A stretch of 62,934 nt of DNA, counting the filler, from Stramenopiles sp. TOSAG23-2 (lineage: Eukaryota), in assembly GCA_900128395.1 (NCBI GenBank). It is 17 parts of 17 records of this genome, joined end to end, with 100 filler letters (N's around TTAATTAATTAA, not from the genome) between each part and the next. Parts side by side here need not be neighbours in the genome. Positions count along the whole stretch, not along the records: positions 42,600 to 46,348 come from LT651112.1; 16 more parts are not named here. One strand, 5' to 3'. Under the pieces are notes generated by a model. That model had not been told where the DNA came from. It searched no databases and worked only from the letters and a program-made list of their open reading frames with translations. Both the position numbers and the translations under genes were made by a program. Positions 4,266-58,217 of the stretch are shown here, piece by piece. Positions within the stretch are counted from its first letter, which is position 1. Each line of letters starts with the position of its first letter.

Positions 4266-7154
4266 TCATTTTATATTATTCTTCACATGAAACTCGCGAT
4301 AACTCTCTTCTATACTCGTATACCCAGCGCCAAAGACTGAAGTGGCTATTCGCGAGAAACCAATATAATTATCAGCAGATAAAACGATCAAAACAAAAAT
4401 AGTCAAGGTAAAAAAACCAACAGTAGGATTGTGTGCAATTCCTGCTAAACTGTTTGCACCATTTGCTACTTTCTGTAATTTAGCATTTATTTTGTCAAGG
4501 TTCAATAATTGATTACCATATGTCTGGCTTAAAACATCATAGACAGCATCGTTATGATGAACACCATCTAAGGACAATCGCTTTCCGGCTGCATTATTTG
4601 TTATTTGATCAGCTTGTAAAACAAAATCGACTCCATTCATCACAGTAGATGCTTTTGTGGCATCCAATACACGTTGATAGCGAGCTGCTGTCATATTCTC
4701 CTTTCGTTCAGGATTTAAATGTAGTGGTTCAATTTTCGGAGGGAGCATCCAACCAATAACAGCCTGAGGACAACGCATCCTGAAATCTCGAATAGTAGAT
4801 TTTAAACCATCCAACCCATATTTTAGGGAATATTTACGATCTTCAGGATCCCAACGTACGTGCCATGCACCTATAGACACTAAAAGATAGTGTTTTTTAT
4901 TTTTTGAACATTTTATTTTGCTATTTTCAAAAAACCATTTATGAACATTGCTTGCCATCGGACGCCAATAAAAATTAATATCGATCCCTTCATGTGAATG
5001 TCCTTTAAGACTTGTTAATTTATCTTTGTGCCTATCAGCTTCAGAGAAAGGAATTTCATGACCCACTAATCTTCCAACACCTTGCGTCATTTTACGAGCA
5101 AGAGAATCTCCAACAATTGAAATGACTGATTCTTCAAAATACTTATGCCAAAATTTATTTGGTTTTGGTGCATAATGTGTAATGGGACGCATAGCTGGAC
5201 ATGCTTCCAAAACTTTTGGATAATGTGTATTTTTCCTTGCAAATTGAAAGTGATATTGATTTGCATCAATCTTGAAACACATATTACCATGATATTCATC
5301 TATAGCCTTTTCACAGTCCTCCGTCGATGCCGCAAACGTCCATGCACCTGTACCCATGGCAGTCGTACAATCTCTCAGCTTTGATTTATGATGTGCAGAG
5401 TAAAGATCAAATCCATTATTATGTTCGTTACTATTTGCTAAGTAAAAAAGAAACATTCCAAATACATATGTTCCAGCGCTTAAACCTATCATCTTTCCTC
5501 CAAACACATTAGATATCCTCTCATTACCTTCATTCTGTAATTCAACACTCGTTGAAATCGTCGAATCTACTGCTTCTAATTGATTGCTGATCCCATCTTT
5601 ATTGGCTTCTTTTGCTTTTTGTATCGAAGCTTGAAAATAATTATACACAACACTTGCTCCTGCCATACTTGTCCATATAATCATAAGTATTTTTGTCGTC
5701 ATTGCGTGGCGATTAAGACTCATAATGCAAAATGCTATCATGTAACAAATTCCAAAACCAACGAAAAGGTAAAGCAAGTTTTTAAATGCTTCATTTTTAT
5801 TATTTGGTATCAACATAGCACGCAAACCAATAGTTATACGAAACATTCTAAATGATATATATATGTAAATAGCTGTAGTAATAACCATATTAATTAATGG
5901 ATAACCAGGTATTAAAATAAATCTGGATTTTGCATTATCAGCGAGCCATACATGATGCTGCAGTAAATATGTCTCCAATGTTATCTTTCCCATTTGAGCT
6001 AATAAATTTGAATGATACATCCGTCCATAGCTCGATATGTTACGTAACAAAATATAAAACAGCAACGGAATCCAAAAGAAATATGGATGCATTTGATTAT
6101 ATTGCAATTTAGGCAAAAAAAAGATATTTTTCACCCACATTACAAAGCCGATAAGCAAAGGTATCAACAAAAAACATTTAATTAACATATTTGTCGATTT
6201 TTGAAGTTTCTCAACACGTGCCGTCCATGTAACAAGCAATGGAAAATTGATAGCAAATATCATACCAAACATCGCACTATAATGGTCTAAACCAGATCTA
6301 AAATGCCATTCATGCCTAGTACCAGATTGAGCACCAACAATTTGTTCCGTCGAAAGAAATGACCATACCAAATTGAAAATAGCTGGAAATTCCCAAATGA
6401 CATATACCAAAAGTCCAAAGCAAATCAATTTTAATCGTAATATAAATTGTGACGTATGGTTTGATTCTTTCTGTATACGCATAACTACGAAAGTTGTAAG
6501 GAAATAAAACGTATGCAAAGGACATATATAATATAATATATATGTGTTATCTAATATTACGCAAAGCAAAAAGACAAAAAAATTCAGTCTCCACATCATT
6601 TGTAAAAATCGAATAATTCCAAAATCTTGCTTAATGTAAAAAAAAGAAACGTTCCCAAATCCAGTCATCCATACATAACAACTTATGAATATACGAATGG
6701 CATTATAAACTTCCTTTTCATGGAAATAGTGATATGCTAAAAATAAATATTGCATCCACCCTTTCCATTCTTCGGTCTGGTCACGATTCAGCACGGTGTT
6801 AATATCATTTTTATTACGTTTAAAAGTAAGTAATGCACATATTGTAAATATTGCAAATAATGTCCAAAATAACGTTTTCGTACCAAAACGTTGTTCATGT
6901 GGCGTATATGGCATATTTTCACACCACCATATGTACAACATAATAAATCCACATTCAACTAACATCTGCAACAATTGTCGCACGGATTCTGTTGTCATAC
7001 TAAGTTTCGCTACATGTTTACTTTTATTCTTTTTTGGAGACCCATTTTTTCTTTTTTTCTCTTTATTATTACTGTCGTATACAAATAATAAATGTACAAG
7101 CAAAGAGATGGAAAAAAATATTAATGAGGCTACACTTCCAACTTGTTTCATCAT
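4266..7154 (-). CDS. CAS1/RWA-family (Cas1_AcylT) O-acetyltransferase with C-terminal SGNH/PC-esterase-like domain
   Basis: LNRDQTEEWKGWMQYLFLAYHYF, YNAIRIFISCYVWMTGFGN, YYICPLHT, EWHFRSGLD and GKITLETYLLQHHVW match the RWA/CASD1 transmembrane domain. The later IVGDSLARK...SLDGVH is a GDS/DxxH esterase motif. Confidence 0.9.
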   Translation of the reverse strand: MMKQVGSVASLIFFSISLLVHLLFVYDSNNKEKKRKNGSPKKNKSKHVAKLSMTTESVRQLLQMLVECGFIMLYIWWCENMPYTPHEQRFGTKTLFWTLFAIFTICALLTFKRNKNDINTVLNRDQTEEWKGWMQYLFLAYHYFHEKEVYNAIRIFISCYVWMTGFGNVSFFYIKQDFGIIRFLQMMWRLNFFVFLLCVILDNTYILYYICPLHTFYFLTTFVVMRIQKESNHTSQFILRLKLICFGLLVYVIWEFPAIFNLVWSFLSTEQIVGAQSGTRHEWHFRSGLDHYSAMFGMIFAINFPLLVTWTARVEKLQKSTNMLIKCFLLIPLLIGFVMWVKNIFFLPKLQYNQMHPYFFWIPLLFYILLRNISSYGRMYHSNLLAQMGKITLETYLLQHHVWLADNAKSRFILIPGYPLINMVITTAIYIYISFRMFRITIGLRAMLIPNNKNEAFKNLLYLFVGFGICYMIAFCIMSLNRHAMTTKILMIIWTSMAGASVVYNYFQASIQKAKEANKDGISNQLEAVDSTISTSVELQNEGNERISNVFGGKMIGLSAGTYVFGMFLFYLANSNEHNNGFDLYSAHHKSKLRDCTTAMGTGAWTFAASTEDCEKAIDEYHGNMCFKIDANQYHFQFARKNTHYPKVLEACPAMRPITHYAPKPNKFWHKYFEESVISIVGDSLARKMTQGVGRLVGHEIPFSEADRHKDKLTSLKGHSHEGIDINFYWRPMASNVHKWFFENSKIKCSKNKKHYLLVSIGAWHVRWDPEDRKYSLKYGLDGLKSTIRDFRMRCPQAVIGWMLPPKIEPLHLNPERKENMTAARYQRVLDATKASTVMNGVDFVLQADQITNNAAGKRLSLDGVHHNDAVYDVLSQTYGNQLLNLDKINAKLQKVANGANSLAGIAHNPTVGFFTLTIFVLIVLSADNYIGFSRIATSVFGAGYTSIEESYREFHVKNNIK

Positions 7155-15195: not shown

Positions 15196-15538
15196 GATGA
15201 TGGTTCAAATATTTATATTTATTTATATTTATATATTCCAGTAAATCAACTATTTGTGTCCACTATATATAAATGTTTACACACACGCAAAAATAAAAAG
15301 AGAGTTTGTAAAAAAACAAGATTGGGAGTAGGTTAAATAACACGCACACACAAACACCAATCACAGAGACGTACACAAAAAATTCGAAATGTCGGGGGGG
15401 AGAAAAATAAAAACGTGATTAATCTAATAATGTTTCCANNNNNNNNNNNNNNNNNNNNNNNNNNNNNNNNNNNNNNNNNNNNTTAATTAATTAANNNNNN
15501 NNNNNNNNNNNNNNNNNNNNNNNNNNNNNNNNNNNNNN

Positions 15539-18500
15539 ATTTTCATTTTGAACTATTTTAGTAATAGTAATTATATCTTTATCAATGTTACCAACATAAA
15601 AGCTTCCGCCGCGCAATGCATTATAATATGCATTACGGATATCCTCTTTCATCGCGATGACTATATCCTTGCAAGAAGTTGTTGTTGAATTGTCACTGTC
15701 TTTTTTTTCGTTGTAAAATTTAAATGTAATTTGCAACATGTGTTTCAAATATTCTGTAGAATCGTTGCTTTTTTTATTACTTCTCCCTTCTTTCAATGGA
15801 TATACTAGCATAGGTGTTTTTTGGGCCCAAATTGGCCACCAACTCAGACTATTATTACTATTTCGGTGCCGATGCGTATTGGTTGCCTGTCTTAATTTAG
15901 CACATTGTAATTCATTCAATACTAATCGTCTAACTTCGATAGGACATTTGCCTTGACGATCCCATAGCGCCTGACCTCGGTCGACGATAACTTCTCTTTC
16001 AATGCGCTTTGAAGCAGATCTAGGATTACCACCAACCGCCATAGGTGTACCAAAGTACAAACTACCTGACGGAATGCTTATCTTATAAATTACACCAGAC
16101 ATTGTAAATACATGTCGATCAAAAAAAACGGTCATAACATTATTACCAAATCCAATAGAGGATTTAGCTAATACAACATTTTCTGATACAATAGGAATTT
16201 TAGTTATCATAGAGGTAGAGTAAATACTACCTTTCGTAACAAATATAGGAGCGACCTTGATGTATGCGGACTTCCGTCGGTTCTTAAAAATAGGAAAGGC
16301 CTTTCCGTCATGTGATTGGAATTCAAATGAAATCGCTGTCGTACCACGTGGAATTTGAATTCTTTGATTTGATATTGCTGGTACATTTGATTTACTATTT
16401 TTTCGCTTTACAATAAACCTGCAGGTTTGAGATCCCAAAAAACCAGTTCCGGTTTTAATATGAAAGTCACTATCGTGTTTATACTCTTTTCTTTCCATTT
16501 GCGATTTATAAGCTACACCAGACAACAATTGGTATACCTTTCCATCTTCCAATCGTTTATACGCTTCCCCCTCCAGCAATTGTCTAGAAGACAATTCAAT
16601 TTCTCTTTCAAAAAGGCGCAAATCACTTCTGCATGGTGGAGAAAACCCCCTCTTTCGCCAATTTGATATATTTTGCATATCTAAGCGTAAAAGACGTTCA
16701 TTTCTAGCTTTTTCAAACCTTTTTTTATCAAGATACTCCCGGGCACCGTAGTCCTTTTTTTTTTTAATTCTTTAAAGAAGTTTTCTGCGATTTCAATGTT
16801 ATTTGTTTTACAATATATACTGATTAGAATATTATAAGTGTCCGCGGTTCTAACAATACCTTTCTCTTCCATTTCGTTAAAAATGGTCTCTTCAAAACCC
16901 ATTTTAAAATTTTCGTGGTTTCCATACATCGCGATAATCGCATTATACATTGTGATTGATGGTTCGATTACACTCATAGAATCTTCTTCTGATGCACTAG
17001 AGCACCGACTTTGCCCATTACTGTTTTCTAAAACTACAGTGAACGTAGATTCTTTGCCAAATGCTTTGCGAGATGCCACTGTAATTAAATTACTAATTTT
17101 AATTCCAAAAATGAATGTAATATTGCTGCATTCGTTATCATCTATATCTTCTATATTTTGTTTTCGCATTTCCAAGGCAAAAAAATGCTGATTATTTTGA
17201 TCTGTTTCGACTAAATGATATTTCTCTCCATATGGATGGCAATAAAGTAAGCATCGCTTAATTTTTTTAGCCTCCATTTTATCCACTCGGAAAGTTACTT
17301 TACATAAATATGTGGTACCAGAATCATTTTCTATGACAGTCTTAATAGAGTGTAATACTTCCTTTGGTTTAGATGGGACTGGAATAATCAAAGATTTGTG
17401 AGCTATTTCGTCTTTACCGCGTAAAGGACAGTGTTTTAGGTCCTGTGTAATTGGATAATATATATTGTGCACGTTTGCAAAATCTTTATCATACCATGTA
17501 TTAACATGCCCCCGATGTAAAACACGCAACCATATAGCTTCCGCTGCTAGTAAGATCCTATGCGTCAACATATATTGGTTGCATGCAAGAAAGTCATATA
17601 TGGAATTACTAAGTAAAATTTCATCCTCGCCATCGTCTGTTTCACTTAGCGTGAATGCTATGCCTTCTAAAATCGTAATTCTCTCAATTTTGCCTTGCGT
17701 TATATCATGCAAAGATTTATATCTCGCATAGCCCGGTAGCTCTAGATTTTGATTGGACTTTTCAAGCTTTTCCAGCTCAAGCACTAAATGGGCATCACAA
17801 AGATCACGGGGGCTGAAACCCGCGTTGTTCAATTCAAACGGATCGCATACGGCATCAACCAAAATTTGAGCAATTCGATGAAAGCCTTGGCTTGCTGCAA
17901 CATGCAATGCTGTATTTCCGGTAGCACTTCTTGTATATGGTTCCCCCCCCGCATTTAATAATTGTAAAACCATTCGCTTTTGCCCTGACATAGTTGCACG
18001 TATAATGGGGGAGTGTAAGCTTTCAACTTGAGCATTTATCCCTGCATTGATAGATTTTTCAATGTAGGATAATTTCTCTTCCTCCTCTTCGGTTTCCAAA
18101 TCTCCCAATGATATTTGAAATTTTAAACTACGTTGCTTGGTGAACATAGAATCTGCTATAAATCCAAGTTCCTTGACAGGTTTTCCAACGAATGCACTTT
18201 GTGGGCTTTGATATTGATGTACATCCATGGCCCAACCTTTCAACTCGTTGAACATTGTGCCTAAAATGTAATGAAGTGGCGTGTCAATTTCCGCCATCAT
18301 CTCGATTGCAACGTTAAAAGCACCGGAGCCATTTATGACTTTATATATTGTTTTACAATTACTTTCATCAAAATGCACAGCAGATGGGTCTAAATCTATG
18401 ACATTCCCAGCAGCATCTATTCGGGGCTTCTTGTTCATCAACATTATCACCCCAATCAATTTTTTCTCGTCGTTTAAACCTATTCTTTCAGAATCTTTTT

Positions 18501-19275
18501 TCATTTGTTTTGTTGAATAAATTGGAACGCCTAGTAAATTTTTTGTTCTAAAATCCATTTCAATATCTGCACTAGCTGAAAAAAATGTATTTTCAGTTAC
18601 ATCATCTGATTTGTAAATAAAATGGCCATTTCCGACATGTATCCATTCTGGATCTTCTGTCAACGTCTTTGTGTCATTTACTGTTATACTATTGTACACC
18701 ATACCTTCTATCCCCTCATTCATGGCAATTGCAAAAGTGTGAAGTTGGCGTGTGCCACTTTCAAAATAACTGGTGTATAAACGCTGCCGTACATTGTCAA
18801 CTAAGTAAAGAACCGCTCGGCTTGCTTCAGACATTTTTGCACAAGCTCCAGTTATGAAATTTTCAACAGGTTGAGTCGCTTTTCTCCTATTCGACATTGT
18901 CATGGCGGTTTCAAACAGGAGCAGATTTACTGCCACTGTGTTTCCAACATTAGCTGCAAAGTGTAAAGGCATCCAGCCACTTTTGTTACACGCAAACTGG
19001 TTAGCGCCATTTCTAAGAAGGATAATAATTAAAGTGCCAGCATGCCCACTATGGTCTTGATTGTCCTTCTCTTGCATATTGCTATCTTTATTACGGAGGC
19101 TGTGGCACACCCAATGTAACGGAGTATTTCCAAGTTCATCCCTCGTATTGACATCTGCGCCCTTTTCCAGCAAAGTAACTACCACCGGAACTTGCTGTGC
19201 ACCTAACTCGTTACCATTGCGACAGGCGTGTAGTAAATACAGGTTATACGATTCGATCATAAGCTCGTCAGACAT
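15539..19275 (-). CDS. Large ankyrin + GAF-like + ankyrin + PPR protein, 3'-truncated; one frameshift at an A11 run (16755-16765)
   Basis: Ankyrin (GADVNTRDELGNTPLHW; GWMPLHFAA; GNTALHVAA), GAF-like (DFRTKNLLGVPI...LIGVIMLMNK...F), PPR (PSITMYNAII; DTYNILISIYCK..NIEIAENFFKEL). The frame of ORF 15491..16678 stays open upstream to the A11 run. Confidence 0.7.
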
Positions 19276-24646: not shown

Positions 24647-26095
24647 ATGGCGCAACTACTGGAAACAAATGGTACTTCCATCAGAACTTCCAATAATAAT
24701 ATGGATTATGTCAAATTATACAACCAAAGTGAAAATGAACTAATCAATGAAGTAATGCCATTTTGGTTAAATTTTGGTATTGATGAACAATATGGTGGAT
24801 TTATATGTGGGTTGAAACACAATGGTGACATTGATGATGATAGCAAATATGCATGGTATCAAGGTAGAGGTGCATGGATTATGTGTAAATATTATGAAGG
24901 ATATAAACAAGATCCAAAGTATTTAGATATTGCACGAAATAGTTTATTATTTACATTAAAACATTGTTGTAACTGGGAGGAAACAAAAGTGATTGAAAAA
25001 GAAAAATGTATTACTGCATACATTGATGGTGACGATACGAGTAGTGATTTGAAAAATTTGAAATTAAAACATTGTTTGACTATTGTAAATAGAAATGGAT
25101 CGATTATGGATGGTCGTACAGAAGTTGATAAAGTTGGATATGCCATGTGTTTTTTAGCGGAAGGATTAATTGCATATTCAACATTATGTAACAAACATGA
25201 GGCTGGAAAAGTAAATAATGAAAATGGTAATAAAATCGTAAAATTAGCAATTCAATTGATTAAATATTTTTATAAAATGGCAAATGATCCTAATCGTGAT
25301 GCACCAGAATCATATTTATTAAATACTCCATATGTTAAAGGAACGCGTACATTAGGGCATAGTATGATTCCTTTACGTTTTTGTACTCAACTTTTAAGAA
25401 ACAACGATGGTTTATTATCTGAGGAAGATCGAACGTATGCAACAAAACTTGCAAATGAATGTGTTACTAATATTTTAGATCGACATTATGATAAAAAATG
25501 GAATTTAGTCCGTGAAGAGATGAATCATGACTGGTCTCAACTGAATAATAATAGTAATTCTCCAGTATTATTTTATTTAGGACATGCCATTGAATCATTT
25601 TGGATGGTAATGGATGAAGCATTACGTGTTAATGATGAGAAATTATTCCATAAAGCATCTTTATATTTAAAACGGCATTGTGAATGTTGTTATGATGAGT
25701 TGACGGGTGGATTAGTTCGTGGTATATCAATTGGTGATGATCATAATGATAAATGTTTGAAAGATAAAGTAGCATGGGTACAGCAAGAAGCATTAGTTGG
25801 TACATTAATGGCAATACGATATTCTAAAAATCAAGCAATTATAGATTGGGCTACAAATTATTTTAATAAATTATACAAATGGACGTATCAATATTTTCCA
25901 TTGAAAAATTATGGAGAACAAAATTACAGCTTGTGGATGGTTGGAAGTGATCGACGTGTTGAATTTAAAGAAACATATAGTTATGGCAATGCGGGATTGA
26001 AAAGTAGAAAAGAAAATTATCATCATCCACGTATGTTAATGTTATTTGTGAAATTTTGTAAAGCAAAGATATCATCTACTATACATGATGAATGA
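24647..26095 (+). CDS. N-acylglucosamine 2-epimerase (AGE/RENBP family)
   Basis: VMPFWLNFGIDEQYGGF, KYAWYQGRGAW, LGHSMI, GHAIESFWMVMDEA, KVAWVQQEAL and KENYHHPRML motifs; intronless, 482 aa. Confidence 0.9.
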   Translation: MAQLLETNGTSIRTSNNNMDYVKLYNQSENELINEVMPFWLNFGIDEQYGGFICGLKHNGDIDDDSKYAWYQGRGAWIMCKYYEGYKQDPKYLDIARNSLLFTLKHCCNWEETKVIEKEKCITAYIDGDDTSSDLKNLKLKHCLTIVNRNGSIMDGRTEVDKVGYAMCFLAEGLIAYSTLCNKHEAGKVNNENGNKIVKLAIQLIKYFYKMANDPNRDAPESYLLNTPYVKGTRTLGHSMIPLRFCTQLLRNNDGLLSEEDRTYATKLANECVTNILDRHYDKKWNLVREEMNHDWSQLNNNSNSPVLFYLGHAIESFWMVMDEALRVNDEKLFHKASLYLKRHCECCYDELTGGLVRGISIGDDHNDKCLKDKVAWVQQEALVGTLMAIRYSKNQAIIDWATNYFNKLYKWTYQYFPLKNYGEQNYSLWMVGSDRRVEFKETYSYGNAGLKSRKENYHHPRMLMLFVKFCKAKISSTIHDE

Positions 26096-26248
26096 CAATT
26101 CCGAAATGTAAATGTTTTTAACTGTAATTGTTTTAATCATAAATTATTCATTGATGATGATGATGATAAGAAGAAGAAGAAGATAATAACAATTCATTTA
26201 AAAGGATTTGCTAGTAGATTAAATTTTAAACATGAAGAAACTAAAAAT

Positions 26249-26788
26249 ATGGCAGATTCATTGATTGAATTTGTCTCAAAGCAACTTGCAGCAGAAAATT
26301 TTGCCACTGTATGTATTATTTGGGATGGAGATTCATATAGTGATGATAGTTTCACTGCATTAATACCACGTATTTATAATAGTTTGTATAAAACACAAAG
26401 AAAGATCCATTTAATTGCATTTGTTCAAAATGAAGATAAATATGATACTAAGAAATCATTTTTAGAAACATGGAATAAAAAAAACAATAATATGCCCATT
26501 TCTTTATATACGACAAAAAATTTTGGTGATTATGGAGGAAATAATAATGATGACCCTTTTGCATTACTTGGACAACATGCATTAAATAAAACAGGAGCAA
26601 AACATATTGTTTGTTTTGGAGGTGGGAATTGTTTAAAAAAAGAGTATGAACTAGGAAAAGAAGATGGAAGAACACTTTGTAAATGGTATGTGTATCCAGC
26701 CATGCGATATCATGAGAAAAAGAAAAAATGGGAGACTGCATCACTTGTAGATCATTTTGCAAATGAGTCAAATGTAATTATAATGTAA
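26249..26788 (+). CDS. Hypothetical protein (alpha/beta, WDGD motif)
   Basis: 179-aa ORF with ordinary composition, IIWDGDSYSDDSFTALI and VCFGGG motifs; family not recognised. Confidence 0.55.
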   Translation: MADSLIEFVSKQLAAENFATVCIIWDGDSYSDDSFTALIPRIYNSLYKTQRKIHLIAFVQNEDKYDTKKSFLETWNKKNNNMPISLYTTKNFGDYGGNNNDDPFALLGQHALNKTGAKHIVCFGGGNCLKKEYELGKEDGRTLCKWYVYPAMRYHEKKKKWETASLVDHFANESNVIIM

Positions 26789-34896: not shown

Positions 34897-36941
34897 CCAA
34901 GAAAAAGGAGCTACTAGCTCGCAGAGAAGCATTTGAGGCAAGGAGAAGGGAGCACGAGCGAGATTTGAAAGAAAAAGAAGCTAGGATGATGAAACAACGA
35001 CATGATGACCATCAAGAAATGGCGGAGTCAGAAAAACGTCGTTTACAGATCCAATCCGAATATGATCAGAAAATAAATACACGTGAAAAAGATCGTATTA
35101 GTCGTAATGAACAAGATCGATTAAGGAGACGTGGAGACTTGGATGAGGGACCGCCTTATTTAGGTGCAGATGATGCACCAATCATGAAGCTTCGATTGAA
35201 ACGAAGTGATGGTACGGAACATAAATGTGAAATCCGTGCACTAGTCGATGGAGATAGCCAAGATGATGCGCGTGTCCGTGTAGAATACATCTTGAGCAAA
35301 GAGGGTATCAGTTTAGATCGAGCAAATAAGGTCATTAAAGCATTGTTATCGTTTTCAAAGAAAAAAACGCAATATAAAGCAGATTGGTCAGCAAAGAGGG
35401 TATCAGTTTAGATCGAGCAAATAAGGTCATTAAAGCATTGTTATCGTTTTCAAAGAAAAAAACGCAATATAAAGCAGATTGGTCCCCACAACGAAGTTCT
35501 AGAAGTAGCCGTATATCAACACCTAAAAGTAGTGGTCGAAGTACACCATCAAAAGGTGGAAGAAGTGCAGATCCAACCATGAAATTTAATAGTAATGTCC
35601 AGTTCTATGCAGCTGATACTGGTTTGACATTTGATGTGGAAAAAGATAGTGATGGGAAAAGCGTATTTACAGTGCAACATGTCGCACATAGCTCCGAAGC
35701 TGCTGCTAAAATATGGAAAGGTGATAAGTTGTTGAAACTTGGTGCAAATGATATAGAACCAGATGCAACTTTAGGAGATATACGTAAAATATTAGACGAG
35801 AGCAAACGGCCAGTAACGTTGTTCTTTCAGAAGTCCCCACCATATTTAGGTTCCACGAAAGCTGCCATTTTTTCCACATTAATTAAAGATAGTAAGCGAC
35901 AAAAAGTAAAATTGAACATACGCAGCTTAGTCGATCCAGATAATGAGTTACATGCAGAACAACGCGCTGCGTGGTTTTGCATGATTAACGATGTTTTAGA
36001 AGTAGATAAAATTAAGAGGGCACTGATTGATTTCAGTAAAAAGAATGGATATACACCTCCTCCAGCACCTCGTGTGAAAACTCCACCAAAAGTAAAAATT
36101 GATCGTAAGAAAGAACCTGGTGAATTTGATTTGTATTTCCAAGACGGGCCTTTGGGTATGTCAATTGATCATCACGATGGAAGTGAAGATGTACATGTAA
36201 TAGCTATGAGTAAAGATGGCCAAGCTGCTGGATTCAAAAAGATTAGAATAGACGATATTATTGTCATGATAGCTGACACTGTTGTATTAGGACAAACAAC
36301 AAATGAGGTGAAAAAAGTTATTGTTGCACATGAACGTCCTTTACGAATTCGATTTCGTCATGAAAACGGATTGGATGATGAAGAGGATGCCAACAAATGA
36401 GGTGAAAAAAGTTATTGTTGCACATGAACGTCCTTTACGAATTCGATTTCGTCATGAAAACGGATTGGATGATGAAGAGGATGCACAACTGAAAAATGAT
36501 CAAGCCAATGCTAAAAAGGATTCGGATGCCAAGAAAGAAGCGGATGCACAAGCTGCAAAGATTGCTGCATATAATAATACGAAGTATGAGGTAGAGACTG
36601 ATAAAGATGGCAAAGTATTGTTTAATGGAGCACCACCTCTTGTCGCGGCAATACATTCTGTAATGAAAGGATTGCAATTAATTGCATTTGGTGATGAATT
36701 AGAGCAAGAAACAATTCATGGACAAATTGAACAGGAAGATAAATATATTTTTGAAGATTTCGACAATGCAAGGACAAAGTTGTGGGGGTCAAAGTTAAAT
36801 GATGATATGATTAGTGCATTTAGTTCAGCTCAAAAAACTAAATATGATAAATTATTGGTGAAAAAAATTCAACCTGCAGCATATAAAAATTATACAAAAC
36901 GAATGGATGCTTTAGCAAAGGAAGCAAGGAAAAAGAAGTAA
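34897..36941 (+). CDS. Two-PDZ-domain protein with N-terminal coiled coil, 5'-truncated; frame breaks at two ~95-bp duplications
   Basis: TGLTF..VQHV..S.AA.KIWKGDKLL..RPVTLFF and GPLGMSI..V......GQAA...IRIDDIIV.I..RPLRIRF. The three ORFs join when the duplicated copies (35295-35484, 36297-36484) are collapsed. Confidence 0.7.
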
Positions 36942-37821: not shown

Positions 37822-38953
37822 TATATCTATACCTCCTATTCTAGCTATATTATATACTTGTGTTAATTTTTCCATCCGGATCTACCGCTGTCACTTTAAA
37901 GGTATCGTTGAATACTTGTCCTGCCTCATCTGTATCCATTATATCTATACCTCCTATTCTAGCTATATTATATACTTGTGTTAATTTTTACTATATATAT
38001 ATATATATATATGTATATCTTTCTACTAATACAATAATAAGAAGAAGGATAATGGTAACACTAATACTATAAATATATAATTGTTCTATCTTTTGAATGT
38101 AAAGTCTATCTACAATATACTATCTATGACATATATTTAATAAATAAAAAAAATACGAGTTCATTCATCCATAATAAAAAAAATTTGTGGAGGAGCCGGC
38201 GGCGCTCGTGCGCTCGCCAGTCAGTGTTAGGTTTAGGGTGATAGTTTTGTTGTTGCGTATTATACCTTAATCCGACAAAGCCAATGCTGTGTAATGTATA
38301 CTTTGTATAGACAACAATAAGTATAATAATAATACGGTATAGCTAAGTTGAGGTCTATAGTAAAAGTTCTATAGTATCGAATAGTAAATAAAAATTCAGT
38401 GTAAGTTGAATGCCTGGAATTAGAATGCCATATGCTGGAATGATGACGTGAAGGCCTGAATGAAGGCACGCGTGATCAAAGAAATAAAGATAATGTATTT
38501 CATTAGATACAGGCAGATGATGAGAGAGATTGACTTGTACCTTCTTCATATATTATTACCATTCATATTTCATTGCATTGTTGATTAATTTTCATAATTA
38601 TGATGGTTAAAATGATAAAATTATTGATAACAATAATAACGACGTTATNNNNNNNNNNNNNNNNNNNNNNNNNNNNNNNNNNNNNNNNNNNNTTAATTAA
38701 TTAANNNNNNNNNNNNNNNNNNNNNNNNNNNNNNNNNNNNNNNNNNNNATAATATATGAGTAAGAGAACATTTTATATATGAGTAAGAGAAAAACACATA
38801 TATAATACGAAGTATATTATATATATATAAAAATAAATTTATGAGTAAATAAAATCTTTTTAAATTTTAAGTAAGAGGATTTTTTATATAAAAATAACGC
38901 TCTCTCTCGAATATTTTTCTTGAGCTATTTTCTTTCAACTCTCTCTCTCAAAG

Positions 38954-42733: not shown

Positions 42734-43314
42734 GTATTGATGTTTTTCTATTTCATATATATATGTATGTATGTACATATTTTTATACTTTTTTATTTAT
42801 CTATTAGTAGAATTAGTATCTATCGATCCCTCTTTTTTTTAAATGAATAGGCACTTTGTAGTGCCTTTGCCACTCTCAGTTTGATGATTTTTGGAAGAAG
42901 AGTAATTTCACCTTAAAAAACGAGCACATTTTTACCGTTTTAACGAATTACAACATTACAACACTTTTTGTAAAATGTCATATCTCAGCCTAAATATAGA
43001 TTATATTTATACCTGGTAACAATCCAGTGACAATGATAATCCTATGCTATATAAACGAATTTCCAACATACAAATATTGATGAATATATATATATGCAAC
43101 ATATTATCATGCAAATATTATATACATGTACATATATGTATCATGCAAATACAAATAAAACACACAAATAGATAGATAAACCAATTAATAAAAAACATTT
43201 TCTATATATATATATATATATTCATAAAGATATAATAGAATCTAAAATATATACTTAAAGTATTTCAAATATTCTACACACACACACACACACAAATATA
43301 CACAAATCATCATC

Positions 43315-43629
43315 ATGTTTCGTAGAAAATCAAAACCAAAAAATGTACAACAAGGCGAAGACGATGCAAATAGTATTAGTACATCAAACATCAATGATGC
43401 GAATAGCATTTTAGATGATTCCAGTAGCATTATGAATACAGTTGGTAGTATGTCCGCTCGAAGTATTGGTGATTTATCCGATATGAATGATGAAAGTCTT
43501 CGTCATGATGATGATGGTAATAACCCAGCTATTGATGATAATGAAAGCAAAAGCCACCATGGTAATTCTAATAACATGATCATGATGAATACTAATGATA
43601 GCAATAACAATCTTTTGAATACTAAATAA
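43315..43629 (+). CDS. Short Asp/Asn/Ser-rich hypothetical protein (possibly a gene fragment)
   Basis: 104-aa ATG ORF with host-like codon usage; no recognisable domain. Confidence 0.35.
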   Translation: MFRRKSKPKNVQQGEDDANSISTSNINDANSILDDSSSIMNTVGSMSARSIGDLSDMNDESLRHDDDGNNPAIDDNESKSHHGNSNNMIMMNTNDSNNNLLNTK

Positions 43630-43703
43630 TTTTTACTAAACTTTATAAATCATTTTTGATTTGAGATGTTAATGAACGGGAGTAAAAGAAATTTATATAA
43701 TAT

Positions 43704-43760
43704 ATGTGAGTAAGAGAACATTTTATATATATATATATATATAAAGTTTCTCTTACACAT
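43704..43760. repeat. Small palindromic element built from the dispersed TGAGTAAGAGAA motif around a (TA)n core
   Basis: ATGTG(AG)TAAGAGAA..(TA)n..TTCTCTTACACAT. The 12-mer also occurs at 38757, 38780, 44311 (rc) and 57641 (rc). Confidence 0.55.
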
Positions 43761-44355
43761 AATTTAATATAAAAGTTTTTTTTATAAATTATGATTTTTA
43801 TATATATATCGATTTATATGATATCATAAAATTCTGACTTGCGTATCATATCTCAAAGTACACGTGATATCATATATCTATTATTTCTTTTACGAATTTC
43901 CGTAAAATATTCGTGTCACATTTAATAAGATTATTTACTAAAATATTTAAAATATAATACGTACATATGTATGATACCGTATTAAAACAAAAAAAAACAG
44001 GAAAAAAGTACATATTATATATACATGCCTGTGTATGATCTATATATAATTCATTTAATACACATTTTTAAAAGCATGTATAATATAATGGTCAAGTTGT
44101 GTGCGTATAAAATGCTTTTTTTTTTTTTATTATTATTATTTCCATGTTGTGTATATGCGAGAGAGAACAACACCTCCATCCCCTCTACACAAAAGGATCT
44201 TATATACTATAATAATTAAAAAAAAAAGTTTCTTTTTCATTTTATTAACTATCATTTTTCTTTTTTCGTTTTTTTTGTAATTTTTTTGTTTCAATTATAT
44301 ATATATAATTTTCTCTTACTCATTTATATATATATATATATTCGATATTCAATAT

Positions 44356-45828
44356 TTACATTTTTGCAGTTGCAACGTCCCAATTTGTACCAGGTGGTAA
44401 TTCCAATTGGCCTAATAAATTATCTTGAAATCGACCTTGTGAACCATCAAGTTTTACACCACATGCATCAGCTACACGATTAATTCCATTAAACATACCA
44501 ATGACAGCAACTGTATCTATCAATGCTTTTTCACCCAATTTCTCAACAATTTGAAGTCTTAAATTGGAAACTTGAGAATCATACAGTCCATCCCCTAATA
44601 AACCATCGCAAACATATTGAGCAAATTCAGTCAATACATGTGAATGCGCCACGGTTGAATGTGCATCGTCTCCGTTTATAGCCCCGGTAATGTCAAAGTT
44701 TCTACCATTTGTAAAACCTAATAACATTCCGTGGCTCAAGGCTCAGTATGCACATACATTCAATTGACTTACTTTCGTAGCAAGCAATTCAATTTGAGAA
44801 CGATTGATCGCTCTTCCACCCATATTATTTGTATTTAAATTCCCTAAATACATTGCAGCTAAATTTCTTGCAAATGTGGCATGTGTAAGTGGAACGGCGG
44901 ATAACATTTTAAGAATATTTGGAACTCCCATGTTTTTACCATTACTAAAATTTTCATATACTAATTTTGTTAATGGATTGGTAGCATTTGTGACGGGGAC
45001 AACTGGTACACGGCCTGCTAGATCAGCAATACATTCTTGTCCCAAGCCAATTATTTTTTCTGGAATATCTGTTGACATTGGTGCTGTTGGTATTGCTGTT
45101 AATGGCCTACCGATACCATAACTAAATGTATCAACATGCGTCATTAATGCAACAATACCAACAATTTCAACATAAGCACCTGGTTCCAACATCGACGTGA
45201 CATTTTGATAATATTCTTCAGCATTTGCCATTCTTCCAGGATCAACAACAATACGATGTATTAAATCGATTTCTACTGGTGATAACGTACAACCATTAAA
45301 GGTTGTATATCCACCCAATTGCAATTCATTCACAAATTGTTCCGAACTTGCTTTTAACTCTTTTGCTTTGTTTGATGATCTTGCAATTCTAGTCAATCTT
45401 GCAATTTGAACGCGTTCCTCTGCTGTATAAAATGTACCACATTCTACCAGTTTAGACCAAGTGTTTTCATGTGCATCCACTAAATCTTGACGAATAGCAG
45501 TTGTTTGTAAATCATATGTATTCATATTACCAGTTGGTTTTAGAAATAGATCACTAGACAACAAGGCCATTGTATCATCACAACCACCGATGAAATCGCC
45601 ATTTTCAGCGTTAAATACGAACGGCGATGACGTGTGTTTCTTTGCTCTTGCATCATTGAATTTCATACGCCCATCGTTGGAAAACAACCAAGTACGAAAT
45701 TCATCTCTTGTGCTAAAAGTCATTTCTTGTAAATTGGCTTGTTTTTGTTCCACAAAAGGTTTCAATGCATTTAATGCTTGTTGATGAAATGGGCATGTTG
45801 CAAACCCAGCCACTACGAATGTAATCAT
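44356..45828 (-). CDS. Glutaredoxin-like/AhpD-like fusion, candidate selenoprotein (490 aa, in-frame TGA at 44743-44745 = Sec362)
   Basis: AAT GTA TGT GCA TAC TGA GCC TTG AGC CAC GGA ATG reads N-V-C-A-Y-U-A-L-S-H-G-M. It is preceded by RSQIELLATKVSQLN and followed in the same frame by an AhpD/CMD-like tail (IDTVAVIGMFNGINRVADACG). The N-terminus has CPFH, SSP and FIGGCDD. Confidence 0.88.
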
Positions 45829-46448
45829 ATTTGGCTAATATATATATATTATATATATATACACTTGAACGTGTATTGATTTAAAATAGTACACAACTAT
45901 TTTACCAGTATTTAGTAAAAGTGTATTTATGCACATGTGCCATGCATGTTTTTAGTTTTTATAATTATTGAGCCGAGTTGCATGTAGTTGGACAGATTGG
46001 ACACAAAGAGGTGAGCTGGTGAGATGATATGTGCACGTACAATGTACATCGATGATGGAAAAGTGGAAATTTGATAGTATTAAATATTAATAATACCATG
46101 TATGTAATACCATATACATTCCGAATTTCTTTTCAACAAGTACAAACATTTTGTATTCATAGATGTTGCAAGTTTACCTAGTTCAATCAATCATTGATGA
46201 CATTTTTTAACATTTGAATATACGAGTGCAGTATCACTAATACTGTAAGCTATTATAATACAATAGTGCTGGAGTGTGGTGATAATACCACTGCTGGTAA
46301 TTTTTAATTTGCAGCAGAGAGGAAAAAAAGAGCACTTCTTCTTTAATANNNNNNNNNNNNNNNNNNNNNNNNNNNNNNNNNNNNNNNNNNNNTTAATTAA
46401 TTAANNNNNNNNNNNNNNNNNNNNNNNNNNNNNNNNNNNNNNNNNNNN

Positions 46449-57495: not shown

Positions 57496-58217
57496 CAATT
57501 ACCAAGTGATAAAATTAACAAGCTTTTTTAAGCTGAAGTATTATATTCGTACAAAATAAAAGTTGATTAGTATCGAGACTATGTACGCGTATATATGATA
57601 GTATATATAGTGTATATGTATCATTATATAAAATATAATTTTCTCTTACTCATATATTAATAATGATGGTTAAAATCTAAGTTAAAATATGACCCACGTG
57701 CGATAAGATCCGAACGATTTTGGAAAATGGAATTAATAGGGGGTATCCCTTGATATTCCCGATATTTTCGTATACTAACTACCTGTAAATTAGTATAACA
57801 TGTGTTTTACTCCCCTTTTCCTGTACTCGAAGGCTACGGAAATTTAGTAGACACTGTAAAATGGAAATAAAAAATTTCTTNNNNNNNNNNNNNNNNNNNN
57901 NNNNNNNNNNNNNNNNNNNNNNNNTTAATTAATTAANNNNNNNNNNNNNNNNNNNNNNNNNNNNNNNNNNNNNNNNNNNNAATAAACCTAAAAGAATGCG
58001 TAGTAGGACTGGTAAAAAGAAGTAAAAGAATTATATACCATACACGAGAGTAATTAAAATATATATTTTTTAAATATATATTTTTAATTTACAAAATATT
58101 TTTATTTTTTAATTTACACATAATTTATATTGTTTTTTAAATTTACTCATGATAATTCCTACTCTTCAGAAGAATACAATACGACGTAACTGAAATAATC
58201 TATCTCACATTAGCACA

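What the first reader, a model, noticed from the sequence alone, without database searches (positions are those of the whole stretch)
44356..45828. Hidden eukaryotic AhpD-like selenoprotein (C-A-Y-U) fused to a glutaredoxin-like domain
Seen: the 361-aa and 127-aa ORFs are in the same frame, separated only by TGA plus one Ala codon, reading QIELLATKVSQLNVCAY-TGA-ALSHG. Established: AhpD/CMD proteins use E-x-N-x-C-x-Y-C-x3-H as the redox motif, so the TGA sits exactly at the second Cys, and CxxU AhpD-like selenoproteins are known in bacteria. The downstream part keeps the family's F.N..R.AD..G signature. TGA is a normal stop in this genome (genes ending at 4266, 8079, 26095), so this is site-specific recoding, not a variant code. 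Inference: a 490-aa intronless, bacterial-type selenoenzyme with a monothiol Grx-like module (CPFH / SSP / GGCDD) that could be its built-in reductant. I do not know of this family or fusion among catalogued eukaryotic selenoproteins.
Basis: partly seen in the sequence, partly recalled or inferred. Interest (0 to 1): 0.92.

Follow-up and report, generated by a model that had tools for sequence, protein, structure and literature searches.

The report
Glutaredoxin-fused AhpD-related selenoprotein gene, eukaryotic
A marine AT-rich eukaryote carries an expressed gene in which a conserved in-frame TGA sits at the active-site cysteine position of a bacterial-type AhpD-related redox enzyme fused to a glutaredoxin domain, most likely a selenocysteine enzyme sent to the peroxisome, though its selenocysteine insertion signal was not found.

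Summary
One 490-codon frame (44356-45828, minus strand) is interrupted only by TGA at 44743-44745, which aligns with the second Cys of the AhpD CxxC motif. Residues 112-475 match NCBIfam NF041238, "alkylhydroperoxidase-related (seleno)protein" (242 bits, cutoff 175). This is a known bacterial selenoprotein family ("hypothetical protein 1", Sargasso Sea 2005). Residues 1-96 are a monothiol glutaredoxin-fold domain (CPFH). The C-terminus (AKM) fits a peroxisomal PTS1.

The TGA is unchanged in a second strain (L001) and in one independent DNA run and two RNA runs. RNA contigs cross it without a gap. Of 149 family representatives, 70 stop exactly at C-x-[YF]. Eukaryotic relatives share the stop at this position, including the choanoflagellate Acanthoeca spectabilis. 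A GC-rich contig (L002) with an intron-like insert has the TGA, an SKL end and a textbook type-2 SECIS.

Weak point: my scans found no canonical SECIS within 2.3 kb downstream in this window, and no genome was available to test for Sec machinery.

Verdict: probably a real eukaryotic selenoprotein. It is a new variant of a known kind: a bacterial family in eukaryotes, fused to Grx and peroxisome-targeted. My literature searches found no description of it in eukaryotes.

The parts
44356..45828 (-). Whole coding frame: 490 codons plus TAA stop (44356-44358), with one in-frame TGA
   Evidence: RNA contig X9 covers 44352-45885 with 0 gaps. GC 0.367 and GC3 0.224 are like neighbouring genes.
45541..45828 (-). 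Residues 1-96: monothiol glutaredoxin-fold domain (C12-P-F-H; T-S-S-P-F; F-I-G-G-C-D-D)
   Evidence: A profile of 18 domain relatives hits PDB glutaredoxins, best E 6.2e-07, with CPFH on CPFC and GGCDD on GGCDD. VIA Z 10.3, rmsd 2.0, 83 aligned to Synechocystis GrxA. Single-sequence Grx HMMs are only weak, E 0.02-0.08, below cutoffs.
45517..45540 (-). Residues 97-104: linker
   Evidence: AF2 model pLDDT <50 for 97-104.
44404..45495 (-). Residues 112-475: AhpD-related (seleno)protein region, NF041238, two AhpD-like helical lobes
   Evidence: NF041238.1 E 1.1e-71, 242 bits vs cutoff 175, profile 1-350/357. Residues 269-470 align to AhpD-type structures at Z 13-14.6. Residues 108-459 align to Sestrin2 at Z 17.4, rmsd 3.2, 235 aligned.
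44743..44754 (-). Redox motif C359-A-Y-U362. The TGA (44743-44745) is the proposed Sec codon.
   Evidence: The TGA is unchanged in L001 and in X3, X9 and X10.
44359..44367 (-). C-terminal A-K-M, PTS1-like tripeptide downstream of the TGA
   Evidence: Sequence. Eukaryotic relatives end SKL (P0105, P0153, L002) or AHL (P0121). The PTS1 consensus [SAC][KRH][LM] is recalled; no predictor was run.
44141..44197 (-). Only GC-rich island of the 3' flank: a hairpin 160-215 nt after the stop. Function unknown; not a canonical SECIS.
   Evidence: MFE -19.3 kcal/mol, z -1.68. L001 has a 4-nt insertion at its 5' arm that by my reading adds pairs. A K-turn-like alternative (UGGA 44175-44178 / GGAA 44140-44143) scores only -4.3 kcal/mol.

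Best explanation
The gene is a native nuclear gene of an AT-rich, intron-poor marine eukaryote. It encodes one 490-residue protein in which UGA362 is read as selenocysteine. The anatomy is: an N-terminal monothiol glutaredoxin domain (CPFH), a short linker, a two-lobed AhpD-related domain of family NF041238 whose second lobe carries E348...C359-A-Y-U362-x3-H366, and a C-terminal AKM that fits a peroxisomal PTS1. The proposed mechanism is inferred from the families. Sec362 is the nucleophile that reduces a peroxide or an oxidised partner. The selenenic acid is resolved by Cys359 to a selenenylsulfide. Glutathione and the fused Grx domain (Cys12) re-reduce it, much as the Grx domain serves the Sec centre in thioredoxin-glutathione reductases or the peroxidase in Prx-Grx hybrids. 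The enzyme probably works in the peroxisome. What is shown: the frame, the conserved TGA, transcription across it, family membership, the folds, and the Sec-type relatives. What is inferred: Sec insertion in this organism, the substrate, the electron path and the localisation.
For: (1) Family: NF041238 at 242 bits vs cutoff 175. The family is listed as a CxxU selenoprotein family in PMC13188914 and was first reported in PMC1088965. (2) Sec position: 70 of 149 listed representatives end at C-x-[YFHW], and at least 18 have Cys there. 58 of 88 rows in the domain tree are Sec-truncated. (3) Eukaryotic relatives with a stop or recoded residue at the same site. P0015, from Acanthoeca spectabilis (EukProt), has the same Grx+AhpD order and ends NDCAY. 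P0174 reads CAYW and P0165 reads CAYG; I read these as TGA called under tables 4 and 25. L002 reads NDCAY-TGA-ATSHGMLL, has a ~320-nt intron-like insert and ends ASKL. L002 also has AUGA(1055-1058)-helix-AAA-mini-helix-UGA(1109-1111) 188 nt after the stop, constrained E -20.9 kcal/mol, the only strong hit of my scanner on 640 nt. P0029 is a Cys form, CAYC. (4) This gene: the TGA is kept in L001 with no indel in 1473 nt. RNA contigs X9 and X10 cross the TGA. Variant sites downstream of the TGA are 2 synonymous plus V398L; variant sites upstream number 7 in the laid runs (4 synonymous, 3 nonsynonymous) and 8 in L001 (5 synonymous, 3 nonsynonymous), sets that partly overlap. (5) The downstream half is conserved at 39-45% identity to relatives, including MFNGINRVAD.CG and the PTS1 end. 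(6) The Grx link recurs. The same Grx-like domain is fused C-terminally to AhpD-like pieces ending SKL (P0049, P0059, P0060). It is also fused N-terminally to TR-like proteins ending ...GGC, to an FKBP-MsrA protein and to other reductases. (7) The AF2 model has pLDDT 92.3 and pTM 0.81, with Grx and AhpD folds. (8) The gene is native: neighbours are eukaryotic (CAP-Gly, UCH, Ank/PPR), GC3 is like its neighbours, and it is present in polyA RNA libraries.
Against: No canonical SECIS (AUGA...AA/CC...GA with a helix of 8 bp or more) was found in the 726-nt 3' intergenic region or anywhere within 2.3 kb downstream. Four home-made scans that did find the L002 control found none. Relaxed matches occur about 1.7 per kb and are noise. 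Rfam gave nothing, but it also misses the L002 SECIS, so that result is uninformative. My scanner has no AT-rich positive control. Sec machinery could not be sought, and there is no tRNA in the window. RNA contigs stop at the (TA)n repeat at 44352, so the 3'UTR is not defined. The polymorphism counts are too small to prove selection on the downstream half. The Grx single-sequence HMM hits are below cutoffs. The eukaryote labels in the tree are partly my own assignment.
Confidence: 0.72

Rival explanations
1. UGA362 is decoded by near-cognate read-through (Trp, Cys or Arg) rather than by Sec. This gives a full-length protein without a SECIS.
For: No canonical SECIS was found within 2.3 kb downstream. 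The downstream half and the PTS1 are nevertheless conserved.
Against: The site is the Sec/Cys position of a curated selenoprotein family. A eukaryotic relative with the same TGA has a textbook SECIS. The codon after the TGA is GCC, not the read-through contexts I recall (recalled knowledge). Trp or Arg at the catalytic position would kill the CxxC-type centre.
Confidence: 0.1
2. The TGA is a true stop. The cell makes only the 361-residue Grx + N-lobe protein, and the downstream 127 codons are a recently orphaned remnant.
For: Gene callers predict exactly this (P0002, 361 aa, cluster of 22 sequences). No SECIS was found.
Against: The truncated product would end one residue before the catalytic residue and lack the His, the second lobe and the PTS1. 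The downstream frame has no stop or indel in any strain seen. It is conserved at 39-45% identity to distant relatives, up to the PTS1. The same arrangement recurs in lineages only 36-51% identical.
Confidence: 0.1
3. It is an artefact: a sequencing error, an unspliced intron holding the TGA, or a bacterial contaminant in the assembly.
For: The catalytic domain belongs to a family curated for bacteria.
Against: The TGA was seen in the window, in L001 and in three independent runs from different studies. RNA contigs are colinear across it. Neighbours are eukaryotic and GC3 matches them. It is found in polyA libraries. The five eukaryote-type rows form one clade, SH-like support 99.
Confidence: 0.02

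Closest known systems
NCBIfam NF041238 AhpD_rel_CFYUT, alkylhydroperoxidase-related (seleno)protein ('hypothetical protein 1' of the Sargasso Sea selenoproteome)
   Same: Residues 112-475 score 242 bits against a cutoff of 175 and cover profile positions 1-350 of 357. The CxxU register is the same, and there is the same mix of Sec-truncated and Cys forms.
   Different: The family is described for prokaryotes, with a bacterial SECIS right after the UGA (PMC1088965 passages). This gene is eukaryotic. The motif letters are C-A-Y-U-A instead of C-F-Y-U-T. It carries an added N-terminal Grx domain and a C-terminal PTS1-like end. A eukaryotic relative has a 3'UTR SECIS.
AhpD / peroxidase-related CMD-fold proteins (e.g. 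PDB 6k40, 2oyo, 2prr; TIGR01926, PF02627)
   Same: Residues 269-470 share the fold (Z 14.0-14.6, rmsd 3.1-3.4, 183-184 aligned). The E...CxxC...H motif is shared.
   Different: Scores are below the curated cutoffs of TIGR01926 (49.7 vs 81.8), TIGR00777 (12.3 vs 192) and PF02627 (15.4 vs 23). There is a second, N-terminal AhpD-like lobe in the same chain. Sec replaces the second Cys.
Sestrin2 (PDB 5t0n, 5dj4)
   Same: It is the best structural match over the whole catalytic part: model residues 108-459, Z 17.4, rmsd 3.2, 235 aligned. Both are single chains with two AhpD-like lobes. That sestrins are AhpD-like is recalled knowledge.
   Different: Only 8% identity, and no Pfam sestrin hit at E<=1. 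The redox motif here is in the C-terminal lobe. There is no evidence of any leucine-sensing or GATOR role.
Thioredoxin-glutathione reductase (TGR) and Prx-Grx hybrid peroxidases (e.g. PDB 1nm3)
   Same: In these proteins a Grx domain is fused to a thiol/selenol redox enzyme as its electron relay. Proteins with the same Grx-like domain in front of a TR body end in ...GGC, which is the Sec-truncated look. 1nm3 and TGR chains appear among the Grx-domain fold matches.
   Different: The partner enzyme here is AhpD-related, not a flavoprotein or a peroxiredoxin. The Grx is a distinct monothiol CPFH subfamily with an insert of roughly 15-20 residues.

Membership tests
NF041238 AhpD_rel_CFYUT (seleno)protein | HMM score above NCBI's curated equivalog cutoff over nearly the whole model | tested here: met
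   242 bits vs 175; residues 112-475 on profile 1-350/357
NF041238 AhpD_rel_CFYUT (seleno)protein | C-x-[FY]-U/C redox motif with Sec or Cys at the aligned position | tested here: met
   C359-A-Y-U362. 70 of 149 relatives end at C-x-[YFHW] and at least 18 have Cys. The letters differ from C-F-Y-U-T at two places.
NF041238 AhpD_rel_CFYUT (seleno)protein | Bacterial SECIS hairpin directly after the UGA (as described for the Sargasso members) | not tested
   Not expected in a eukaryote. I did not fold the 60 nt after the TGA on their own. Scans of the coding part downstream found nothing convincing.
Eukaryotic selenoprotein gene | In-frame UGA conserved across strains and relatives, with Cys homologues at the same site | tested here: met
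Eukaryotic selenoprotein gene | SECIS element (kink-turn core UGAN/KGAW, helix II, apical AA) in the 3'UTR | tested here: inconclusive
   No canonical element in 2.3 kb downstream by my scanners, which find the L002 control. Rfam is blind to the control. The 3'UTR extent is unknown. The core consensus is from a PMC3753652 passage.
Eukaryotic selenoprotein gene | Sec machinery (tRNA-Sec, SBP2, eEFSec, PSTK, SepSecS, SPS2) in the same genome | not testable with these tools
   No genome is held for this window. There is no tRNA in the window.
Glutaredoxin (Trx-fold, GSH-dependent) | Grx fold with active-site Cys at the start of helix 1, a cis-Pro loop and a GG.DD glutathione-binding motif | tested here: met
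   Profile vs PDB Grx E 6.2e-07, with CPFH/CPFC, SSPF/SLPQ and GGCDD aligned. Z 10.3, rmsd 2.0.
Glutaredoxin (Trx-fold, GSH-dependent) | Score above curated cutoffs of the Grx HMMs | tested here: not met
   PRK10638 15 bits vs 129; TIGR02180 14.5 vs 87. It is therefore a divergent Grx-like subfamily, not a classical Grx.
PTS1-targeted peroxisomal protein | C-terminal tripeptide fitting [SAC][KRH][LM] | tested here: inconclusive
   AKM fits the recalled consensus. Relatives end SKL, SKL, SKL and AHL, and one (P0165) ends differently. No predictor or localisation data.
Sestrin (PA26) | Sequence membership | tested here: not met
   No Pfam hit at E<=1 other than CMD. Only fold likeness, Z 17.4 at 8% identity.

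The most novel reading that the evidence does not exclude
This is the first recognised peroxisome-targeted selenoprotein family of eukaryotes: a bacterial AhpD-related CxxU enzyme captured once, wired to its own glutaredoxin, and spread from choanoflagellates to algae. In this AT-rich lineage its UGA is recoded by a SECIS that departs from the AUGA...AA...GA rule. The element could be the GC-rich hairpin at 44141-44197, or one beyond a 3'UTR intron. If so, standard SECIS-based surveys would miss this organism's whole selenoproteome.
Probability: 0.25. Interest if true: 0.8.

Novelty: new variant of a known kind. Interest (0 to 1): 0.62.

Why it matters
Eukaryotic selenoprotein families are few, and most were found by SECIS-first searches in model genomes. 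This gene adds a family so far curated only for bacteria. It comes with a built-in reductant domain, and the same two domains are fused in both orders, which is a strong functional link. It also carries a peroxisomal signal, pointing to selenium-dependent peroxide chemistry in protist peroxisomes. All 20 eukaryote-type relative clusters I looked up come from environmental or transcriptome data, and none from a named reference genome in NCBI or UniRef. That may explain why the family has escaped catalogues. The missing canonical SECIS in an AT-rich genome is a concrete test case for how far SECIS rules hold.

Tried and rejected
Rfam at gathering and at E<=10 found no SECIS in the window. I rejected this as evidence because Rfam also misses the textbook SECIS of L002.

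Own SECIS scans found nothing canonical. Candidates at 43062-43142 and 42819-42911 are 1.2-1.5 kb away, AU-rich, lack the AA, and are of a kind found about 100 times per strand in the window.

A K-turn-like UGGA/GGAA reading of the GC island gives only 7 bp, no apical AA, and -4.3 kcal/mol against -19.3 for the competing hairpin. I keep it only as a weak lead. Coding-region hairpins after the TGA at 44516-44630 have no adjacent core.

The ATGA at 44323 is not kept in L001. It belongs to a repeated intergenic motif also found beside other genes.

RNA contigs give no cover of 43650-44342, and DNA contigs also break at the (TA)n repeat, so this says nothing about the UTR. Nothing was laid from run X17.

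The search for homologous proteins on residues 200-490 returned only P0002. Scans of viral contigs and genome contigs for relatives found none.

A second frame that stays open past a TGA (24647-26788) looks like two adjacent genes in one frame, not a selenoprotein.

Literature: searches found AhpD-type selenoproteins treated only as prokaryotic, and one search returned no relevant hit. 'The algal selenoproteomes' has no occurrence of AhpD, alkylhydroperoxid-, carboxymuconolactone or peroxisom- in its main text.
Full report
OBSERVATION. On the minus strand, ORFs 44743..45828 (361 aa) and 44356..44739 (127 aa) share one frame. Read with TGA=U, the stretch gives 490 residues with a single TGA at codon 362 (window 44743-44745), in the context ...ELLATKVSQLNVCAY-U-ALSHGMLL.... 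Among 26 long ORFs of the window, 6 end in TGA, 13 in TAA and 7 in TAG, so TGA is an ordinary stop here. The window is eukaryotic. It is about 30% GC. Its neighbours encode CAP-Gly, UCH/ankyrin, ankyrin/PPR and a Cas1p-type acyltransferase. The gene's GC (0.367) and GC3 (0.224) match those neighbours.

WHAT THE PROTEIN IS. Residues 112-475 match NCBIfam NF041238.1 AhpD_rel_CFYUT, "alkylhydroperoxidase-related (seleno)protein", at 242 bits (curated cutoff 175) over profile positions 1-350 of 357. Generic AhpD/CMD models score below their cutoffs: PF02627 15.4 vs 23, and TIGR01926 49.7 vs 81.8. [quoted passage not shown] The 2005 paper describes hypothetical protein 1 as four sequences with a conserved CXXU (PMC1088965, passages). 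In the alignment to PDB 6k40, residue 362 falls on the second Cys of CVYC, followed by the His, and the downstream MFNGINRVADACG falls on MFNMTNRVSSALG.

An AlphaFold2 model built on an 84-row alignment is confident (mean pLDDT 92.3, pTM 0.81). Only the linker at 97-104 and the last three residues are disordered. Residues 269-470 superpose on AhpD-type structures (6k40 Z 14.6, rmsd 3.1, 183 aligned). The whole of 108-459 superposes best on Sestrin2 (Z 17.4, rmsd 3.2, 235 aligned, 8% identity). The catalytic part is therefore a single chain with two AhpD-like lobes.

THE N-TERMINAL DOMAIN. Residues 1-96 give only weak single-sequence hits to Grx HMMs, E 0.02-0.08. A profile of 18 relatives of this domain does better. 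It hits solved glutaredoxins at E 6.2e-07, aligning CPFH with CPFC and FIGGCDD with HIGGCDD. The model also has the Grx fold (Z 10.3, rmsd 2.0, 83 aligned).

The same domain is found in several other contexts:
- in front of TR-like flavoproteins whose predicted products end ...GGC, which is the truncated look of a GCUG selenoprotein;
- in front of an FKBP-MsrA protein (P0107);
- in front of an aldo-keto reductase and a quinone oxidoreductase (P0006, P0003);
- as small stand-alone proteins ending AKL or SKL (P0039, P0052);
- behind AhpD-like C-terminal pieces in proteins ending SKL (P0049, P0059, P0060).

Fusion of the two domains in both orders is good evidence that they work together.

IS THE TGA REAL AND READ THROUGH? 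The stretch is held by 20 of 24 listed public runs from 12 studies, 9 of them RNA. I laid four runs:
- RNA contig X9 (1534 nt) covers 44352-45885 with no gap.
- PolyA-RNA run X10 covers 44352-45833 in three contigs, the first of which crosses the TGA.
- DNA run X3 covers 44352-45950.
- Nothing was laid from X17.

No difference is listed at 44743-44745 in any of the three runs that cover it. L001, a metagenome contig of a second strain (95% nt identity over 2.5 kb), has TGA at codon 362 and no indel in the 1473-nt frame. Variant sites downstream of the TGA are two synonymous and one V398L. Upstream of the TGA, the laid runs show 7 variant sites (4 synonymous, 3 nonsynonymous) and L001 shows 8 (5 synonymous, 3 nonsynonymous); the two sets partly overlap. 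These counts are compatible with selection on both halves but too small to prove it.

COMPARATIVE EVIDENCE. An exhaustive HMMER search found 550 relatives at E<=1e-3. Of the 149 listed representatives, 70 end exactly at C-x-[YFHW]. At least 18 carry Cys at that place; my regular expression undercounts, missing for example P0018 and P0021. The rest are Grx-only proteins or fragments.

Eukaryote-type relatives:
- P0015 comes from the choanoflagellate Acanthoeca spectabilis (EukProt). It has the same Grx+AhpD order, 36% identity, and ends ...NDCAY.
- P0174 reads CAYW-ATSHGMLL...TSKL, and P0165 reads CAYG-AAWHGMLL. I read the W and G as TGA called under tables 4 and 25; this is an inference.
- P0029 is a Cys form, CAYC.
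- L002 is a GC-rich metagenome contig. It reads ...KLNDCAY-TGA-ATSHGMLL..., then about 320 nt of low-complexity sequence in frame, with a further TGA, a pyrimidine-rich tract and AG at 701-702. I take this stretch for an intron, with boundaries unverified. It then reads AVIAMFNGINQVAD...ASKL-stop.

L002 also carries a SECIS. 188 nt after its stop lies AUGA (1055-1058), a 10-bp helix, AAA, a mini-helix and UGA (1109-1111). This is a type-2 SECIS by the published core rule UGAN/KGAW, although the final letter is C (PMC3753652 passage). It was the only strong hit of my scanner on 640 nt, with constrained E -20.9 kcal/mol. At family level this is therefore a eukaryotic selenoprotein.

In a FastTree of 88 domain rows, the five eukaryote-type rows with enough cover (P0001, P0019, P0015, P0074, P0094) form one clade with SH-like support 99, among rows I presume to be bacterial. 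Only P0015 and P0001 are eukaryotic on independent grounds. I dropped P0002, P0017 and P0164 as near-duplicates.

TARGETING. Full C-termini of eukaryote-type relatives end SKL (P0105 cluster, P0153, L002) or AHL (P0121). The window's protein ends AKM. P0165 ends differently and instead has a hydrophobic N-terminus. The [SAC][KRH][LM] PTS1 rule is recalled, and no predictor was run. Because this signal lies downstream of the UGA, its conservation is further evidence that translation continues.

THE GAP: NO SECIS FOUND HERE. The 3' intergenic region (43630-44355) ends at a convergent ORF (43315..43629). Four home-made scans were run over up to 2.3 kb downstream: ungapped helices, constrained folding, dynamic-programming helices with AA/CC, and relaxed cores. 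They found no canonical element, though they did find the L002 control. Relaxed matches arise about 100 times per strand in the window and are noise. Rfam is silent, but it is also silent on L002.

The only GC-rich island, at 44141-44197 and 160-215 nt after the stop, folds into a hairpin of -19.3 kcal/mol with z -1.68. L001 carries a 4-nt insertion at its 5' arm that, by my reading, adds pairs. A kink-turn-like alternative in the island (UGGA/GGAA) is weak at -4.3 kcal/mol, with 7 bp and no apical AA. RNA and DNA contigs all break at the (TA)n repeat at 44352, so the UTR is undefined. No genome is held, so Sec machinery could not be sought. My scanner has no AT-rich positive control. Lobanov 2007 notes lineage-specific SECIS features in Dictyostelium and suggests that a red alga's SECIS elements may be unusual enough to escape SECISearch (PMC2375036 passages).

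MECHANISM (inferred). The mechanism rests on three analogies. The first is AhpD, where I recall that the second Cys of CxxC is the nucleophile. The second is TGR. The third is the Prx-Grx hybrids. On this basis, Sec362 attacks the oxidant, Cys359 resolves the intermediate, and GSH with the fused monothiol Grx (Cys12) recycles the centre. The site of action is the peroxisome.

NOVELTY. The catalytic family and its Sec site are known in bacteria. New here are its presence in eukaryotes, the Grx fusion and the PTS1. Searches of the held literature found AhpD-type selenoproteins treated only as prokaryotic. One further search returned no relevant hit. The main text of 'The algal selenoproteomes' has no AhpD, CMD or peroxisome term, though it has an unnamed 'Hypo' family. 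Lobanov 2007 lists three unnamed hypothetical selenoproteins in Ostreococcus. Seblastian lists 186 candidates in a supplement. Supplements were closed and Gobler 2011 is not held, so prior listing under an uninformative name cannot be excluded. Of 20 eukaryote-type clusters looked up, one has a named organism and none comes from NCBI or UniRef.

VERDICT. I put Sec decoding in this organism at about 0.72. It is a new variant of a known kind. Interest is 0.62.

Noticed in passing
38760-38768(+), 38783-38791(+), 43710-43718(+), 43748-43756(-), 44311-44319(-), 57641-57649(-): A repeated intergenic motif, (T)ATGAGTAAGAGAA followed by AT-rich or (TA)n sequence, occurs 6 times where 0.41 are expected by chance. 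It always lies in 3' flanks of genes, in either orientation. Two copies form an inverted pair bracketing 43702-44325, which is most of this gene's 3' flank. It could be a MITE-like element or a 3'-end signal.
   Followed up: partly
24647-26788 (+): ORF 24647-26095 (GlcNAc 2-epimerase-like) ends in TGA, yet the same frame stays open for 230 more codons and includes ORF 26249-26788. The bridge is low-complexity (DDDDDKKKKK). It looks like two adjacent genes in one frame, not a Sec site.
   Followed up: partly
proteins P0007-P0013: TR-like flavoproteins with the same Grx-like N-terminal domain end at ...GGC, as expected if a GCUG selenocysteine tail was cut off by gene callers. This suggests a TGR-like selenoprotein group in marine protists (some from MMETSP/EukProt).
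   Followed up: no
proteins P0049, P0059, P0060, P0107, P0048: The Grx-like domain also occurs behind AhpD-like pieces (reverse order, ending SKL), in front of an FKBP plus MsrA (GCFWG) protein, and in tandem copies. This suggests a portable reductant module, often with a PTS1.
   Followed up: partly
model residues 1-97 vs PDB 9d2f_F and 8j07_S: The best structural matches of the Grx-like domain are the N-terminal domains of radial-spoke-3 / axonemal proteins of mouse and human cilia (Z 12.8 and 11.0, rmsd 1.9-2.1), above classical glutaredoxins (Z 10.3). The identity of those chains was not looked up.
   Followed up: no
L002 382-702: The intron-like insert of the GC-rich relative is a multiple of three in length and in frame, and holds one further TGA (589-591). 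No GT donor keeps the frame. A GC-AG intron starting at 382 would fit.
   Followed up: partly
15491-19275 (-) and 35384-36941 (+): ORF pairs 16681..19275/15491..16678 (separated by TAG plus 2 nt) and 35384..36400/36321..36941 (overlapping, different frames) look like genes split by short introns or frameshifts.
   Followed up: no
46350-46392 and about 38715-38748: Runs of N (scaffold gaps) lie close to the 5' flank of the target gene and beside the repeated motif copies at 38760.
   Followed up: no
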